From a virus (taxonomy: Duplodnaviria > Caudoviricetes): 60,152 nucleotides of DNA. The translations under genes and the position numbers were made by a program. How positions within the stretch are numbered: the first letter of the stretch is position 1; each line of letters opens with the position of its first letter. Shown here piece by piece: positions 8,855 to 12,391 of the stretch. The notes beneath the pieces are model-generated. The model was not told the origin of the DNA. It worked only from the letters and a program-made list of their open reading frames with translations, and did not search any database. The DNA lies in IMG/VR virus record IMGVR_UViG_3300011115_000619, positions 1-60,152 of that record. One strand, given 5' to 3'.

Positions 8855-9628
8855 TTAGAAGCGCACCACGAAACCATTCGTGCTACGCTTGGCCTTGGCA
8901 CCCTTGGGCGACAGCCCCACGACCACACCCTTGGGGTCAAGGTGGCGCAGGTCATGCTTGTCGCCGTTGATCACGGTCGCGCCCCAGTAGGTGGCGGGGA
9001 ACGCCATGCCGAACACCACGGCCACGTTATGCCCAGCGGCAAGCGCAGCCTTGCATTCCTCGTGGTTCTCGCCAGAGAACGAGAATGTCTGGTGTACGTT
9101 GGGTGCAACTGCACCCAAACGCTTGAAGTCCTTGGTGTACTCCACGAATTGAACGTCCGGGAACAGAGCGGGCAGGGTGATCATCGTGCCTTCTGGTACC
9201 CCAGTCATGGCTGCAGTGCGGGCATCCACCTTGAACTTGATGCGCGACCAGTTCAGGTCAGTCGACCCATTCAGGCGGGCGCAGAACTTCTTCAGCAGAC
9301 GCCGGGCTTTGCGCGATGCCCGAACAATGAACCGGGCAATGTGATTCATGTATTCGTTGCGATGCTCCATGAACATGCGAGCCTTGGCAATTCTGGCCGC
9401 ACGAACGTGACCAATCCCTGCCTCAAGGTCAACGACCATTGCAACATGCCCAGCGTACCAACCAAGGCACAGTTCAACGCACTGGGGCGAGGCATTGCCG
9501 CACAGATCACCCACGCCCCCGCTCGTGAAGGGTGCCATGTAGTGGATCGCGTTCAGGTAACCATAACCCTCGGCCTTGACGGCCTTGGCGCTGTCCATGG
9601 ACATGACACGGTCGTAATTGATTGCCAT
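8855..9628 (-). CDS. GP88-family / radical-SAM-like Fe-S protein
   Basis: C-x5-C-x3-C (CGNASPQCVELC), RLNGSTD, FVEYTK, TFSFSG and GD.HDLRHLDP motifs. Confidence 0.65.
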   Translation of the reverse strand: MAINYDRVMSMDSAKAVKAEGYGYLNAIHYMAPFTSGGVGDLCGNASPQCVELCLGWYAGHVAMVVDLEAGIGHVRAARIAKARMFMEHRNEYMNHIARFIVRASRKARRLLKKFCARLNGSTDLNWSRIKFKVDARTAAMTGVPEGTMITLPALFPDVQFVEYTKDFKRLGAVAPNVHQTFSFSGENHEECKAALAAGHNVAVVFGMAFPATYWGATVINGDKHDLRHLDPKGVVVGLSPKGAKAKRSTNGFVVRF

Positions 9629-9672
9629 TGCATGGCCTCCATTTGGGGTGCATTTGCACCTGAAATCCTGAC

Positions 9673-9727
9673 GGCCTCGTCAGTGGGGATCACATCCCGC
9701 AGACCGGGGTTTCCCCCGGTTTCGGCC
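9673..9727 (-). ncRNA. Type II hammerhead ribozyme HH1
   Basis: GGCC-GAAA-CCGGGG[GAAA]CCCCG-GUC^-UGCGGGAU[GUG]AUCCCCA-CUGACGA-GGCC; full catalytic core and three stems; predicted cut between 9702 and 9701. Confidence 0.92.
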
Positions 9728-9731
9728 TTGG

Positions 9732-10010
9732 TCAGTCCCAGAGTCGCTCCAGATTGTCGGCGACCCAGCGCAGCGATTCCTTGGCTTGCGCGAAATCGTC
9801 CGCAAGAGCATCGCCATTTCCATCGTTGTTCCCGTGAAGGGTCAGGCAGGCACCATGCAGCATCAGCAGCCCCGTCCAATCGTCAGGGTCCACGTCCGCA
9901 GGGTGACCCTTGCCGAACATTGCCATGTACTGCAAACGGTCCCCGATAAAAGTGCAAAGGTGCGACCGCAGGTCATGCCAGCCATCGGGAATCTCAATCA
10001 CGCGCTTCAT
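9732..10010 (-). CDS. Hypothetical protein
   Basis: Palindrome 10029 plus GGGAGA RBS; stop lies 4 nt before HH1. Confidence 0.65.
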   Translation of the reverse strand: MKRVIEIPDGWHDLRSHLCTFIGDRLQYMAMFGKGHPADVDPDDWTGLLMLHGACLTLHGNNDGNGDALADDFAQAKESLRWVADNLERLWD

Positions 10011-10047
10011 TCTCGTTCTCCCATTTGAGATGCAATTGCACCCGAAA

Positions 10048-10242
10048 TCAGCGTGCCGCCCACCAAGGGGCATTGTGTTCGCGCACTGCGGCCTGCATTT
10101 CCAGTTCGCGCATGACCTGCGCGCTGGTGCGGTTCCGTCGCGCCACGGTATCGGCATAGAAAAAGTGATAGGTGAGTATCCCGGTGACGACCGGCATCAG
10201 GATAATCAGACCAAACATCTGCAGGCTTGTGGTCACGTCCAT
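10048..10242 (-). CDS. Small predicted membrane protein
   Basis: Hydrophobic N-terminal segment; palindrome 10261 plus GGAG RBS. Confidence 0.65.
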   Translation of the reverse strand: MDVTTSLQMFGLIILMPVVTGILTYHFFYADTVARRNRTSAQVMRELEMQAAVREHNAPWWAAR

Positions 10243-10286
10243 TTTTATTCTCCAGTTTGAGGTGCATTTGCACCTGAAATCCTGAC

Positions 10287-10341
10287 GGCCTCGTCAGTGC
10301 CCGCATTACGGGTCAGACACGGGTGACCCCGTGTTTCGGCC
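10287..10341 (-). ncRNA. Type II hammerhead ribozyme HH2
   Basis: GGCC-GAAA-CACGGG[GUCA]CCCGU-GUC^-UGACCCGU[AAU]GCGGGCA-CUGACGA-GGCC; predicted cut between 10316 and 10315. Confidence 0.92.
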
Positions 10342-10602
10342 TTAGAAAGGAATCGGCGACCATACCTCGGCATTGCTCGGTTCCATGGCGATGATATCCC
10401 TGTGGGGCAGGGGCTTGCCGTTGGCGAGCCTGACACTGATGCACAGGTCATCCCAGTCCGCATACTCAGCGGCACGCTCCGCAATTTTGCTGGCGCAAGC
10501 GAGTGTCTCGTAGGTGTTGTGGTTCCAGCGGCGCGTCACGGTCCCGGTGATTTCATCGCGGCTACCGTGAATTGTCAGGGTGACATAGATTGCGAATTGC
10601 AT
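10342..10602 (-). CDS. Hypothetical protein
   Basis: Palindrome 10620 plus GGAG RBS; TAA abuts HH2. Confidence 0.7.
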   Translation of the reverse strand: MQFAIYVTLTIHGSRDEITGTVTRRWNHNTYETLACASKIAERAAEYADWDDLCISVRLANGKPLPHRDIIAMEPSNAEVWSPIPF

Positions 10603-10641
10603 TGTCGTTCTCCGTTTGGGGTGCAATTGCACCCGAAAGTT

Positions 10642-10803
10642 TCAGATTGCGCGAGCGGCCTTGCCCACAATCAGGGTGGCGGTCGCGGTCGCGTCCACGG
10701 TCCCATCCAGCATGGCACAGCACGCCCCCTTCATGTTGCGGGCATAGACCAGCGCAACGCGAACGGCACCCTTGTCACGAAGGGTCACAAGATAGGCGTT
10801 CAT
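10642..10803 (-). CDS. Small hypothetical protein (53 aa, MNAYLVTLRDKG...)
   Basis: ATGA overlap with the upstream 30-aa ORF; ends just before palindrome 10620. Confidence 0.5.
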   Translation of the reverse strand: MNAYLVTLRDKGAVRVALVYARNMKGACCAMLDGTVDATATATLIVGKAARAI

Positions 10804-10892
10804 GCTGCACCATGAAGCAAAGCAATGGCGATCACGAACATCACCAAGCGACCGGGCATGGTGCCCAGCAGAAACCCTGCCACATTTTCCAT
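10800..10892 (-). CDS. Tiny hydrophobic peptide (30 aa, MENVAGFLLG...)
   Basis: Palindrome 10912 plus AAGGA RBS. Confidence 0.4.
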   Translation of the reverse strand: MENVAGFLLGTMPGRLVMFVIAIALLHGAA

Positions 10893-10945
10893 TGTGTCAT
10901 TCCTTGTTTGGGGTGCAATTGCACCTGAAAGCTAAACCATCTGAC

Positions 10946-10999
10946 GGCCTCGTCAGCACCCGCATCACGGGTGGACACGGGTTGCCCCGTGTTTCGGCC
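10946..10999 (-). ncRNA. Type II hammerhead ribozyme HH3
   Basis: GGCC-GAAA-CACGGG[GCAA]CCCGU-GUC^-CACCCGU[GAU]GCGGGUG-CUGACGA-GGCC; predicted cut between 10974 and 10973. Confidence 0.93.
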
Positions 11000-11001
11000 T
11001 G

Positions 11002-11337
11002 TTACCATGGTTCCTTGGCATGGTCCGCTTCGTCCCACCAAGGATCATTCTCGCAAGCGGGCACGGGGTCAGTCTCCGCATGGTACTGTTCCTGTAGAAC
11101 GAACAGCCTGTGACGGGTGGCCTCCGCGATATTGTCCCACCGCACGATTTCGGAGTTCAGGATTTCGGCCCGGAAATCATCAGGCTCCACCCCCTCAAAC
11201 TTTGCTTCTGCCATAAGCACCCGCAATTCGTTGCGGCACTTGCGGGCGGCACCCTCCGCACTTTCAGCGAGGGTGCGCATCTGATTGAAATCCTCATTCT
11301 CTGCGATGTACTGAAAGAAGGGGTCAAAGGCAGGCAT
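11002..11337 (-). CDS. Hypothetical acidic protein
   Basis: Palindrome 11356 plus GGGAGA RBS; flanked by HH4 and HH3. Confidence 0.7.
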   Translation of the reverse strand: MPAFDPFFQYIAENEDFNQMRTLAESAEGAARKCRNELRVLMAEAKFEGVEPDDFRAEILNSEIVRWDNIAEATRHRLFVLQEQYHAETDPVPACENDPWWDEADHAKEPW

Positions 11338-11387
11338 GTTCAATCTCCCATTTGGGGTGCAATTGCACCTGAAATCTCAAACGATGG

Positions 11388-11448
11388 GGCCATCGTCAGT
11401 ATGGGCATCACCCATAGACGCAGGGGCTTGCGCCCCCGCGTTTCGGCC
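11388..11448 (-). ncRNA. Type II hammerhead ribozyme HH4
   Basis: GGCC-GAAA-CGCGGGGGC[GCAA]GCCCCUGC-GUC^-UAUGGGU[GAU]GCCCAUA-CUGACGA-U-GGCC; one extra U after the core; predicted cut between 11417 and 11416. Confidence 0.88.
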
Positions 11449-11453
11449 TTGTG

Positions 11454-11996
11454 TTATTCCTCGCTTGCCAGTTCCACGTCACCATCCTTGGCGGCTGCGG
11501 CTGCGAGTTCCTTAAGCACCCGCACCCGTTCCGCGACCGTTGCGTAATCGTCGTCCGACAGTTCCGCGATGCGCTTGGCGAGTGCCTCAAGGGGGTCAAC
11601 CGGCGCAACATGAAGCGCGCGGATCTTGGTTTCAGTGTCGATATCGTTCTCCGCGAACCAGTCGAGCAATTCGCGCTTGCCATTGCGGGCAATCTCCCGA
11701 ATCTCCGGGCAATTTTTGATCACGCCATTGGCGTTGGCGCAATAACGGGTGGCGCAAGCGTCCGTGATACCGTTGGCGAGCATCAGGTCCTTCAGTTTCA
11801 TCACTTGCCCCTTTTCAAGTCCACCAGACTTGAGGGTGCCGACGACGACGATATCGGCCATGAGACCGGCATACACTTCTACCTTGGCTTCATTGCAGAA
11901 ACCGCGTGCGGCCTTGGCATCCTTGTCGCGTTCCATGACAACGGCATGGCCCATGGCAACGCGGGCGACGATATCGTTCAGGTTGAGCGTGTTCAT
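11454..11996 (-). CDS. Hypothetical protein, first gene of the leftward operon
   Basis: Palindrome 12016 plus GGAG RBS. Confidence 0.75.
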   Translation of the reverse strand: MNTLNLNDIVARVAMGHAVVMERDKDAKAARGFCNEAKVEVYAGLMADIVVVGTLKSGGLEKGQVMKLKDLMLANGITDACATRYCANANGVIKNCPEIREIARNGKRELLDWFAENDIDTETKIRALHVAPVDPLEALAKRIAELSDDDYATVAERVRVLKELAAAAAKDGDVELASEE

Positions 11997-12391
11997 TTTG
12001 GTAGTCTCCATTTGGGGTGCAATTGCACCCATAATCGGGCGAGATTGCCCGGCGCACTAGACCGTGATCCAGTGGGCGGGACACACTCGCTTGTGGGTGG
12101 CACGCAATCGCGCCACCCCCCATATCGTTGAAGCACCCCTTGCTATCGGGGCGCCACACAACGACTAGTTAAACCGATCTTATATTGTTAGGGCATAGCC
12201 GTTCCCATTGCAGGGTGGCTCACATCTCTACCGTTCCATAGGGGCTTCTGCTTGCTCTGCCCGGCGATGTGTTCTCTTGATTGGAACATTCATTGCGACG
12301 AACAGCCTATGGGCAACTTTGATGTGGCCTACCTTTTTCATAAGTCATCGCGGTAGGAGCGACCGCCCCTCACGCGGGGCTAGCTATTCGA

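What the first reader, a model, noticed from the sequence alone, without database searches (positions are those of the whole stretch)
9668..11400. Every ribozyme carries a downstream anti-core hairpin, conserved by covariation
Seen: in HH1-HH3 the core is followed by its own complement (CUGACG-AGGC-CGUCAG). HH4 differs in sequence but keeps the fold (ACGAUG-GCCC-CAUCGU). This hairpin is mutually exclusive with stem II and the catalytic core. Inference: either a kinetic switch that allows cleavage only during a co-transcriptional window (perhaps coupled to ribosomes stopping on the adjacent stop codon), or a post-cleavage fold that blocks re-ligation and protects the new 5' end.
Basis: partly seen in the sequence, partly recalled or inferred. 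Interest (0 to 1): 0.8.

Follow-up and report, generated by a model that had tools for sequence, protein, structure and literature searches.

The report
Hammerhead ribozymes with a self-blocking tail
Four self-cutting RNA motifs between small phage genes are each followed by a short tail that can fold back onto the ribozyme's catalytic core, and the same pairing is kept by matching mutations in many other phages, so it is a selected feature whose exact role is still open.

Summary
The window is a 60-kb, near-complete virus record. It carries four type II hammerheads on the minus strand, all below Rfam's cut-off (20-33.6 bits against 37). Each starts 0-5 nt after a stop codon. In HH1-3 the 5 nt after stem II (GUCAG) complete the hairpin CUGACG-AGGC-CGUCAG. 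HH4 forms ACGAUG-GCCC-CAUCGU in another register.

Related ribozymes give the stronger evidence. I collected 298 stem-filtered type II hammerheads with patterns that leave the tail free. Of these, 77 carry xUCAG or CxUCAG directly after stem II. In 77 of 77, x is the Watson-Crick partner of N7, the one free core position (54 C:G, 23 U:A). Five close families hold both pair types.

The published loop I-tail pseudoknot does not explain the tail. It is detectable in 27% of this class, the same as in permuted controls, against 95% in the canonical class. Folding energies put the hairpin 1.7-2.2 kcal/mol below the hammerhead fold.

The function is unresolved. My best reading is a two-state RNA whose hairpin locks and tidies the 3' product after cleavage. 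A kinetic or translational switch acting before cleavage is nearly as likely. Six literature searches found no description of it.

The parts
9673..9727 (-). HH1, type II hammerhead from the 5' GGCC to the 3' GGCC of stem II. Predicted cleavage after GUC, between 9702 and 9701.
   Evidence: RF02276 at 24.8 bits, below the cut-off of 37. Core CUGACGA...GAAA...GUC read. The hammerhead fold is the minimum-energy structure when the RNA ends at stem II. The cleavage site is inferred from the consensus.
9668..9683 (-). HH1 anti-core hairpin CUGACG-AGGC-CGUCAG. The tail GUCAG is 9672-9668.
   Evidence: Hairpin fold -29.6 against hammerhead fold -27.4 kcal/mol.
10287..10341 (-). HH2, type II hammerhead. 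Predicted cleavage between 10316 and 10315. The TAA stop codon at 10344-10342 abuts it.
   Evidence: RF02276 at 26.4 bits. ORF end. Found again by my layout scan.
10282..10297 (-). HH2 anti-core hairpin CUGACG-AGGC-CGUCAG.
   Evidence: -28.8 against -26.6 kcal/mol. The predicted 3' product folds as stem I hairpin, then anti-core hairpin with no spacer, then the palindrome hairpin.
10946..10999 (-). HH3, type II hammerhead. Predicted cleavage between 10974 and 10973.
   Evidence: RF02276 at 33.6 bits. Found again.
10941..10956 (-). HH3 anti-core hairpin CUGACG-AGGC-CGUCAG. The sequence after the tail differs from HH1 and HH2.
   Evidence: -31.6 against -29.7 kcal/mol.
11388..11448 (-). HH4, type II hammerhead with an extra U between A9 and stem II. 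Predicted cleavage between 11417 and 11416.
   Evidence: RF02276 at 20.0 bits, E 0.64 when only 2.1 kb is searched. Not listed at E<=5 for the whole window. Found by my layout scan with stem II offset by one base.
11381..11396 (-). HH4 anti-core hairpin ACGAUG-GCCC-CAUCGU. A seventh G.U pair would extend it to 11397/11380. Tail bases 11386-11382 (CAUCG) can alternatively pair with loop I UGAUG.
   Evidence: -37.0 against -35.3 kcal/mol. The pseudoknot alternative is read directly from the sequence.

Best explanation
Each element is a two-state RNA. The active state is a type II hammerhead with a 4-bp GGCC/GGCC stem II and no loop I-tail pseudoknot. The competing state is a 6-bp hairpin. In it the 5-6 nt transcribed just after stem II pair with core nucleotides C3-G8, and stem II opens.

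Proposed course of events: stem II can close 5-7 nt of synthesis before the competitor strand exists, or later in the minority conformer, and the ribozyme cuts after GUC. The 5' fragment is held only by 4 bp and leaves. The hairpin is then the only fold available to the leftover core. It starts at C3, directly after stem I, with no spacer. The downstream mRNA therefore begins with a 5'-OH and two abutting hairpins and carries no free ribozyme remnant. This would make the cut final and insulate the downstream leader, much as engineered ribozyme insulators do.

Shown here: the complementarity, its selection by covariation, the absence of the pseudoknot, and the predicted energy balance.

Inferred: the order of events, that the ribozymes cleave at all, and the benefit to the downstream mRNA.
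For: 1. The pairing is selected.
- Patterns that fix the core and stem II but leave the tail free gave 298 stem-filtered hammerheads: 209 with GGCC, 79 with GCCC and 10 with GCGC.
- 77 of the 298 have xTCAG or CxTCAG right after stem II. In 77 of 77, x is the Watson-Crick partner of N7: C:G 54, U:A 23.
- TCAG at that offset is expected 0.68 times by chance in 209 and is seen 48 times.
- A helix of 5 bp or more that includes N7 occurs in 97 of 209, against a mean of 30.9 (maximum 44) in 200 tail shuffles. For 6 bp or more it is 80, against a mean of 10.3 (maximum 23).

2. The swaps are independent.
- The 77 fall into 35 clusters at 80% identity of stems III and I. Five clusters hold both pair types.
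- L083 (C:G) and L020/L069 (U:A) are 94% identical.
- In a 7-member family the pair is UA in 4 and CG in 3. The hairpin loop in these seven varies in length (the alignment shows about 4, 5 and 13 nt) and all cells are paired.
- One case with N7=A has a U partner (L277).

3. It is not the known pseudoknot.
- Loop I-tail pairing of 4 bp or more is found in 27% of class A against 26% in permuted controls.
- The same detector finds it in 95% of 153 canonical AGCC-tail hammerheads. Only 10 of those 153 have an anti-core helix of 5 bp or more.

4. The energies are balanced.
- The window's four hairpin folds are 1.7-2.2 kcal/mol below the hammerhead folds at 37 C.
- The core is paired in the minimum-energy structure in 46 of 48 class A and 9 of 9 class A2 members. 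The hammerhead fold is the minimum-energy structure in 84 of 114 'other' tails.

5. The product state fits. The predicted HH2 3' product is stem I hairpin followed at once by the anti-core hairpin. The hairpin begins exactly at C3 in the two dominant architectures: 52 plus 10 of the 97 helices.
Against: - No cleavage, structure-probing or RNA-end data exist for these elements. No RNA run was listed.
- All four window ribozymes score below Rfam's gathering score.
- Stem I alone already gives a paired 5' end, so the extra protection from a second hairpin is conjecture.
- A 4-bp product helix (-5.9 kcal/mol) should fall apart unaided, so a 'lock' may not be needed.
- Because the hairpin is predicted to be the more stable fold before cleavage, it must also slow or gate cleavage. 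A role before cleavage cannot be separated from a role after it.
- Exceptions exist. L262, L266 and L272 carry a 7-bp helix with a mismatch at N7. L315 and L318 pair N7=U with G.
- A second register (nGAGGC with GUCUCn') did not show clean covariation: 5 Watson-Crick and 3 G.U of 13.
- About half of the GGCC family has no such hairpin (112 of 209), so the hairpin is optional.
Confidence: 0.45

Rival explanations
1. The hairpin is a regulatory or attenuating switch that acts before cleavage. It exists to hold the ribozyme off. Cleavage happens only in the brief window before the tail is made, or only when some condition tips the balance. Candidates are ribosome traffic over the adjacent stop codon, which would unpair the 5' strand of stem II, or temperature, Mg2+, or a factor bound to the palindrome hairpin just downstream. 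Processing of the polycistronic mRNA would then be partial or conditional.
For: - The hairpin fold is predicted more stable than the hammerhead fold in all four window copies and in 55 of 57 class A/A2 homologs. It therefore must compete before cleavage.
- The minimum-energy structure flips after only 5-7 added nt.
- Direct-path barriers are 9.3-9.9 kcal/mol towards the hairpin and 11-12.1 kcal/mol back. With fast natural hammerheads above 100 per minute (passage of PMC6155905 seen), a 'cleave or get trapped' partition is possible.
- The predicted share of the hammerhead fold falls about 25-fold or more between 37 and 15 C.
- The stop codon of the upstream ORF ends 0-5 nt before stem II in all four copies.
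- The canonical class uses the same tail position for the opposite purpose, an activating pseudoknot (PMC3088659, passages).
Against: - Stop-codon adjacency is not specific to hairpin-bearing ribozymes.
- No sensor or ligand site is evident.
- The window of 5 nt is a fraction of a second at usual polymerase speeds (a recalled figure).
- The barrier estimates ignore pseudoknotted intermediates and tertiary contacts and rest on an assumed prefactor.
- Energies from nearest-neighbour rules are uncertain by about the size of the difference found.
Confidence: 0.3
2. The tail is simply the published type II pseudoknot partner of loop I, and its complementarity to the core is incidental because loop I (UGAUG or UGACG) resembles the core.
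For: - In HH4 the tail CAUCG can pair with loop I UGAUG over 5 bp (4 Watson-Crick and 1 G.U), read.
- In HH3 GUCA can pair with UGAU over 4 bp.
- PMC3088659 reports that a majority of type II hammerheads have 4 bp or more between loop I and the bases right after stem II (passage).
Against: - HH2's loop (UAAUG) cannot pair with GUCAG.
- Across class A the pseudoknot potential equals the permuted control (27% against 26%; 0% with 5 bp or more).
- Loop I varies freely (UAAUG, UCACG, UUACG, UAAGG and others) while the tail stays xUCAG.
- x tracks N7, not the loop.
- The detector finds the pseudoknot in 95% of canonical members.
Confidence: 0.04
3. The hairpin masks the Shine-Dalgarno-like GAGG formed by G8-A9 and the first stem II bases, so that ribosomes do not bind the ribozyme remnant.
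For: In hammerheads with N7=G and no hairpin, CUGAGGAGG is followed by a start codon at a median of 4 nt after stem II (12 of 12). This suggests the remnant can act as a ribosome-binding site.
Against: The same hairpins occur with stem II GCCC, where the remnant reads GAGC and is not Shine-Dalgarno-like. That set has 14 xTCAG and 5 CxTCAG cases, all complementary to N7. In class A only G8 is paired and AGG sits in the loop.
Confidence: 0.04
4. The pairing is a chance or hitch-hiking effect, or a DNA-level inverted repeat such as a protein-binding site, with no RNA function.
For: HH1-3 share an identical 16-mer and could be recent copies. Only one of the six pairs can vary, so the covariation rests on one column.
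Against: - Stems I and III differ among HH1-3 while the core and tail are identical.
- 77 of 77 are complementary across 35 sequence clusters and three stem II types, with the helix kept across different loop lengths.
- Shuffled-tail controls are far lower.
- The repeat overlaps an RNA catalytic core whose sequence is fixed for RNA reasons.
Confidence: 0.03

Closest known systems
Type II hammerhead ribozymes of bacteria and prophages (Rfam RF02276; Perreault et al. 2011, PMC3088659, passages read)
   Same: Same core (CUGANGA, GAAA, GUC cleavage triplet). [quoted passage not shown] They occur in phages, with several copies flanking small unknown genes in one transcript.
   Different: The published consensus has a 2-3 bp stem II and a 3' tail (AGCC) that pairs with loop I and activates the ribozyme. 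Here stem II is 4 GC pairs and no pseudoknot signal is found. The tail pairs with the catalytic core itself, which should inactivate it. The window's copies score below the family's gathering threshold.
Hammerheads of viroids and plant satellite RNAs, whose active fold alternates with a more stable inactive fold of the genome (recalled from general knowledge, not checked in a call)
   Same: The hammerhead is a transient or minority conformer, and a competing pairing sequesters core nucleotides.
   Different: There the competitor is the rod-like or branched fold of a circular RNA genome, and it protects ligated progeny. Here it is a dedicated local 6-bp hairpin in the mRNA of a DNA phage.
Attenuator and alternative pairings flanking the HDV ribozyme, studied in co-transcriptional folding work (recalled, not checked)
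   Same: Flanking sequence pairs with ribozyme strands, and the timing of transcription decides whether cleavage occurs.
   Different: It is a different ribozyme class in an RNA genome. No conserved 5-nt tail covaries with a free core position.
RiboJ-type synthetic insulators: a hammerhead followed by an added 3' hairpin (recalled, not checked)
   Same: The ribozyme cuts away upstream context, and a hairpin after it keeps the remnant from interfering with the downstream ribosome-binding site.
   Different: It is engineered from a type III satellite hammerhead. Its hairpin does not pair with the catalytic core.

Membership tests
Hammerhead ribozyme, type II (RF02276) | Conserved core: C3-U4-G5-A6-N7-G8-A9, G12-A13-A14, A15.1-U16.1 and H17 | tested here: met
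   CUGACGA, GAAAC and GUC are present in all four copies. HH4 has one extra U between A9 and G10.1.
Hammerhead ribozyme, type II (RF02276) | Topology: stems I and III closed by loops, stem II open at the ends | tested here: met
   The minimum-energy fold of each ribozyme ending at stem II gives exactly this structure. Stems I and III differ in sequence among the four copies but stay paired.
Hammerhead ribozyme, type II (RF02276) | Score at or above Rfam's gathering threshold of 37 bits | tested here: not met
   No hit at the gathering score. Scores are 33.6, 26.4, 24.8 and 20.0 bits. The shortfall comes from the 4-bp stem II, the short loop I and the non-consensus tail, not from the core.
Hammerhead ribozyme, type II (RF02276) | Pseudoknot between loop I and the 3' tail. 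This is typical of the majority (PMC3088659) but is not strictly defining. | tested here: not met
   In class A, 27% have 4 bp or more, against 26% in permuted controls. In the canonical class it is 95%. Within the window only HH4 (5 bp) and HH3 (4 bp) have the potential.
Hammerhead ribozyme, type II (RF02276) | Site-specific self-cleavage giving a 2',3'-cyclic phosphate and a 5'-OH | not testable with these tools
   No RNA run holds the region. Tandem prophage hammerheads were shown to cleave in native 2-kb transcripts (PMC3088659, passage). Whether those carry this tail could not be checked because supplements are closed.
Natural bistable (switching) ribozyme | Two mutually exclusive folds of similar stability, both under selection | tested here: inconclusive
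   Exclusivity and an energy difference of 1.7-2.2 kcal/mol are predicted. The hairpin is supported by covariation. The hammerhead fold is supported by core conservation and by stem variation. Actual occupancy of each fold was not measured.

The most novel reading that the evidence does not exclude
A large subclass of phage type II hammerheads may have replaced the activating pseudoknot with a built-in anti-ribozyme strand. That would make them natural kinetically gated ribozymes. Whether a polycistronic phage mRNA is cut would then depend on the race between cleavage and hairpin invasion, and possibly on ribosomes terminating on the stop codon that abuts stem II. This would be a first natural hammerhead switch in a DNA genome and a concrete function for phage ribozymes.
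Probability: 0.25. Interest if true: 0.85.

Novelty: new variant of a known kind. Interest (0 to 1): 0.62.

Why it matters
The role of the many hammerheads in phage and prophage genomes is described as an open question (PMC6155905, passage). A tail that is conserved, covaries with the core and inactivates it gives a concrete, testable handle. It predicts either gated or partial processing of phage operons, or a defined structured 5' end for each downstream message.

It also splits type II hammerheads into two designs that use the same tail position in opposite ways. One design stabilises the active fold with a pseudoknot. The other competes with the active fold through the anti-core hairpin. 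This matters for ribozyme annotation, because these copies fall below Rfam's threshold. It also matters for people who build ribozyme insulators and switches.

Tried and rejected
1. RNA evidence. The look-up of sequencing runs listed no RNA holder. No statement on expression or cleavage can be made.

2. Cultured relatives. blastn of 9600-11500 against 50,697 phage records gave no match.

3. A census of canonical type II hammerheads in bacterial genomes through the genome search gave too few to use: 1 of 3 genomes and 2 of 151 genomes.

4. Register B (nGAGGC paired with GUCUCn'). It looked like a second covarying solution. A looser, unbiased regex gave only 5 Watson-Crick and 3 G.U of 13, so I do not claim it.

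5. My start-codon distance heuristic for class A is unreliable, because GUG inside GUCAGAGUGA is counted as a start. I used it only for the N7=G class.

6. Permuted loops are not a useful null for the canonical pseudoknot class, because both partners are conserved there (95% against 96%). I use that set only to show that the detector works.

7. The ORFs flanking the ribozymes gave no family hits in 7 of 8 cases. Only 8858-9628 matched, to PF17338 (GP88) and phrog_1617.

8. Literature. Six searches and passages of PMC3088659, PMC8782182 and PMC6155905 showed no description of a tail pairing with the core of type II hammerheads. Subscription papers and supplements, such as the alignments in Dataset S1 of PMC3088659, could not be seen and might show it.

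Full report
WHAT IS THERE

The window is a complete or near-complete virus record of 60,152 bases. Between 9.6 and 11.5 kb the genes run on the minus strand. They are small ORFs without family matches in 7 of 8 cases. The one exception, 8858-9628, matches PF17338 (GP88) and phrog_1617.

Four intergenic gaps hold a type II hammerhead. On the RNA the order is:
- the stop codon of the upstream ORF, ending 0-5 nt before the ribozyme (ORF ends at 9732, 10342, 11002 and 11454);
- GGCC, then GAAAC;
- the stem III hairpin;
- GUC and the predicted cut;
- the stem I hairpin;
- CUGACGA, then GGCC;
- the tail.

About 8-20 nt further on come a palindromic hairpin (GGUGCAAWUGCACC), a Shine-Dalgarno sequence and the next start codon.

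Rfam finds nothing at its gathering score. With an E-value threshold it finds Hammerhead_II four times, at 33.6, 26.4, 24.8 and 20.0 bits against 37. The cores are canonical. Stems I and III differ in sequence among the four copies yet stay paired. HH4 has an extra U between A9 and stem II. My own scan for the type II layout found no fifth candidate.

THE OBSERVATION

In HH1-3 the five bases after stem II are GUCAG, giving CUGACG-AGGC-CGUCAG. In HH4 the tail CCAUCGU gives ACGAUG-GCCC-CAUCGU.

The 5' arm is core C3-G8 (A6-G10.1 in HH4). The loop and the first 3'-arm base are stem II bases. The hairpin and the active ribozyme therefore cannot coexist.

RNAfold returns the hammerhead fold when the RNA stops at stem II. 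It returns the hairpin fold once 5 nt (HH1-3) or 7 nt (HH4) are added. With both folds evaluated on the same RNA, the hairpin state is lower by 2.2, 2.2, 1.9 and 1.7 kcal/mol at 37 C.

Inside the window the evidence for selection is thin. HH1-3 share one 16-mer and HH4 is in another register. It is still notable that the tail is identical in HH1-3 while the stems and the sequence after the tail differ.

HOMOLOGS

I scanned IMG/VR and one genome per prokaryote species for GGCCGAAAC-N-GTC-N-CTGANGAGGCC.
- After collapsing identical sequences there were 253 hits.
- A stem-energy filter kept 209: 135 viral, 71 genome and 3 window.
- A helix of 5 bp or more between the core and the next 22 nt, including N7, occurs in 97 of 209. 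By source that is 74 of 135 viral, 20 of 71 genome and 3 of 3 window.
- Shuffled tails give a mean of 30.9 and a maximum of 44.
- For 6 bp or more the count is 80, against a mean of 10.3 and a maximum of 23.

The decisive test uses N7, the only core position free to vary. I defined the register by the other four tail bases alone.
- 48 hammerheads from 43 loci have xTCAG at once after stem II. N7:x is C:G in 37, U:A in 11 and nothing else.
- 9 more have CxTCAG: C:G in 4 and U:A in 5.
- TCAG at that offset is expected 0.68 times by chance.
- The same holds with other stem II sequences. Among 79 GCCC-stem hammerheads there are 14 xTCAG (7 C:G, 7 U:A) and 5 CxTCAG (all C:G). Among 10 GCGC-stem hammerheads there is 1.
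- In total, 77 of 298 carry the tail and 77 of 77 are complementary.

Relatedness does not explain this.
- The 77 form 35 clusters at 80% identity of stems III and I, and five clusters contain both pair types.
- L083 against L020 and L069 are 94% identical and differ by the double change at N7 and its partner.
- A 7-member family has UA in 4 and CG in 3. Its hairpin loops are about 4, 5 and 13 nt in the alignment, and every cell is paired.
- Two contigs (L280 and L282) each carry one hammerhead of each type.
- L277 has N7=A opposite U.

Exceptions:
- L262, L266 and L272 have a 7-bp helix with a mismatch at N7.
- L315 and L318 pair U with G.
- A second register that looked promising did not hold up.

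IS IT THE KNOWN PSEUDOKNOT?

Perreault et al. report that most type II hammerheads pair loop I with the bases right after stem II, and that this pseudoknot is needed for fast cleavage (PMC3088659, passages).
- In class A, 27% have 4 or more contiguous loop I-tail pairs. This is the same as when loops are permuted among members (26%). None has 5 or more.
- Loop I varies (UAAUG, UCACG, UUACG and others) while the tail does not.
- As a positive control I collected 153 canonical hammerheads with the AGCC tail. The same detector finds 4 or more pairs in 95% of them. Only 10 of the 153 have an anti-core helix of 5 bp or more.

The two tail designs are therefore largely exclusive. Within the window, HH4's tail could form a 5-bp pseudoknot with loop I (UGAUG with CAUCG) and HH3's a 4-bp one. 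HH2's cannot.

HOW IT MOST LIKELY WORKS

Shown: the tail is complementary to the core, the pairing is selected, the pseudoknot is absent, and the two folds are predicted to be close in energy, with the hairpin favoured.
- The minimum-energy structure has the core paired in 46 of 48 class A and 9 of 9 class A2 members.
- The hammerhead fold is the minimum-energy structure in 84 of 114 hammerheads with other tails.

Inferred: the ribozyme cuts either before the tail has invaded or from the minority conformer. The 5' fragment is held only by GGCC/GGCC (-5.9 kcal/mol) and leaves. The hairpin then forms for good. It starts at C3, directly after stem I, so the downstream message begins with two abutting hairpins (predicted for HH2).

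I rank this 'lock and tidy the product' reading first, at 0.45. It needs no extra factor, and it fits the strong preference for helices that start exactly at C3 (62 of 97).

The switch reading follows at 0.30. A hairpin more stable than the active fold must affect the precursor as well.
- Direct-path barriers are 9.3-9.9 kcal/mol towards the hairpin and 11-12.1 kcal/mol back.
- Natural hammerheads can exceed 100 per minute (PMC6155905, passage).
- Together these allow a race between cutting and trapping. The estimates are crude.

- Stop-codon adjacency is general to this hammerhead family and not tied to the hairpin.
- Blocking re-ligation seems unnecessary for a 4-bp product helix.

Masking of the Shine-Dalgarno-like GAGG is unlikely, because GCCC-stem ribozymes keep the hairpin.

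COMPARISON AND NOVELTY

By core and topology these are type II hammerheads. They miss Rfam's threshold and lack the family's typical pseudoknot.

The principle of a competing inactive fold is familiar from viroid hammerheads and from HDV flanking sequences (recalled, not checked here). What I did not find described is a dedicated 5-6-nt tail that pairs with the core of DNA-encoded phage hammerheads and covaries with N7. I searched six times and read passages of three papers. Supplements were closed, and the alignments of PMC3088659 may contain such sequences. I rate it a new variant of a known kind.

LIMITS
- No experimental data of any kind.
- The samples are conditioned on exact patterns (H17=C, GAAAC, fixed stem II).
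- The energies ignore tertiary contacts.

Noticed in passing
window, 32-37 sites from 1609 to 59246; for example 9647-9660, 10029-10042, 10261-10274, 10620-10633, 10912-10925, 11356-11369, 12016-12029: The palindrome GGTGCAAWTGCACC occurs 37 times with up to 3 mismatches, against 4.5 expected. In the 6.5-12 kb block it is followed by CCAAAUGGAG and a start codon a fixed 18-20 nt downstream, whether or not a ribozyme is present. It is a genome-wide leader hairpin or operator of unknown role.
   Followed up: partly
other loci, for example L005, L044, L082, L089, L092, L146, L183, L232: In hammerheads with N7=G the core plus stem II reads CUGAGGAGG, and a start codon follows at a median of 4 nt after stem II (12 of 12). 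The ribozyme remnant seems to double as the Shine-Dalgarno sequence of the next gene.
   Followed up: partly
all pattern-derived loci; window 9732-9734, 10342-10344, 11002-11004, 11454-11456: A stop triplet ends within 6 nt of stem II in nearly all filtered hammerheads of every tail class. It is often TAG using the first G of GGCC: 25 of 48 in class A and 37 of 114 in 'other'. The conserved A before stem II may partly reflect this.
   Followed up: partly
other loci, for example L019, L061, L084, L093, L135, L173: A third tail class, AG-N(2-4)-GCC(U), was found in 18 of 209. It shows no loop I pseudoknot signal. It is complementary to AGGC, which occurs both at the 5' edge of the ribozyme and at A9 plus stem II. 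This may be another competing pairing.
   Followed up: no
L012 (7 hammerheads in about 4 kb), L364 (7), L021 and L281 (4 each): Some phage contigs carry dense arrays of type II hammerheads, one per short gene.
   Followed up: no
window 10941-10931 (minus strand), just after the HH3 tail: The HH3 tail runs into AUG-GUU-UAG. This is a two-codon reading frame whose AUG lies 7 nt after the GAGG of the ribozyme remnant. It is absent from HH1 and HH2 and may be chance.
   Followed up: no
stem I loops of the window's ribozymes and of most GGCC- and GCCC-stem homologs: Loop I is nearly always of the form U-N-A/G-N-G closed by G-C (UAAUG, UGAUG, UCACG and others). This conserved shape has no assigned partner in this pseudoknot-less subfamily.
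   Followed up: no
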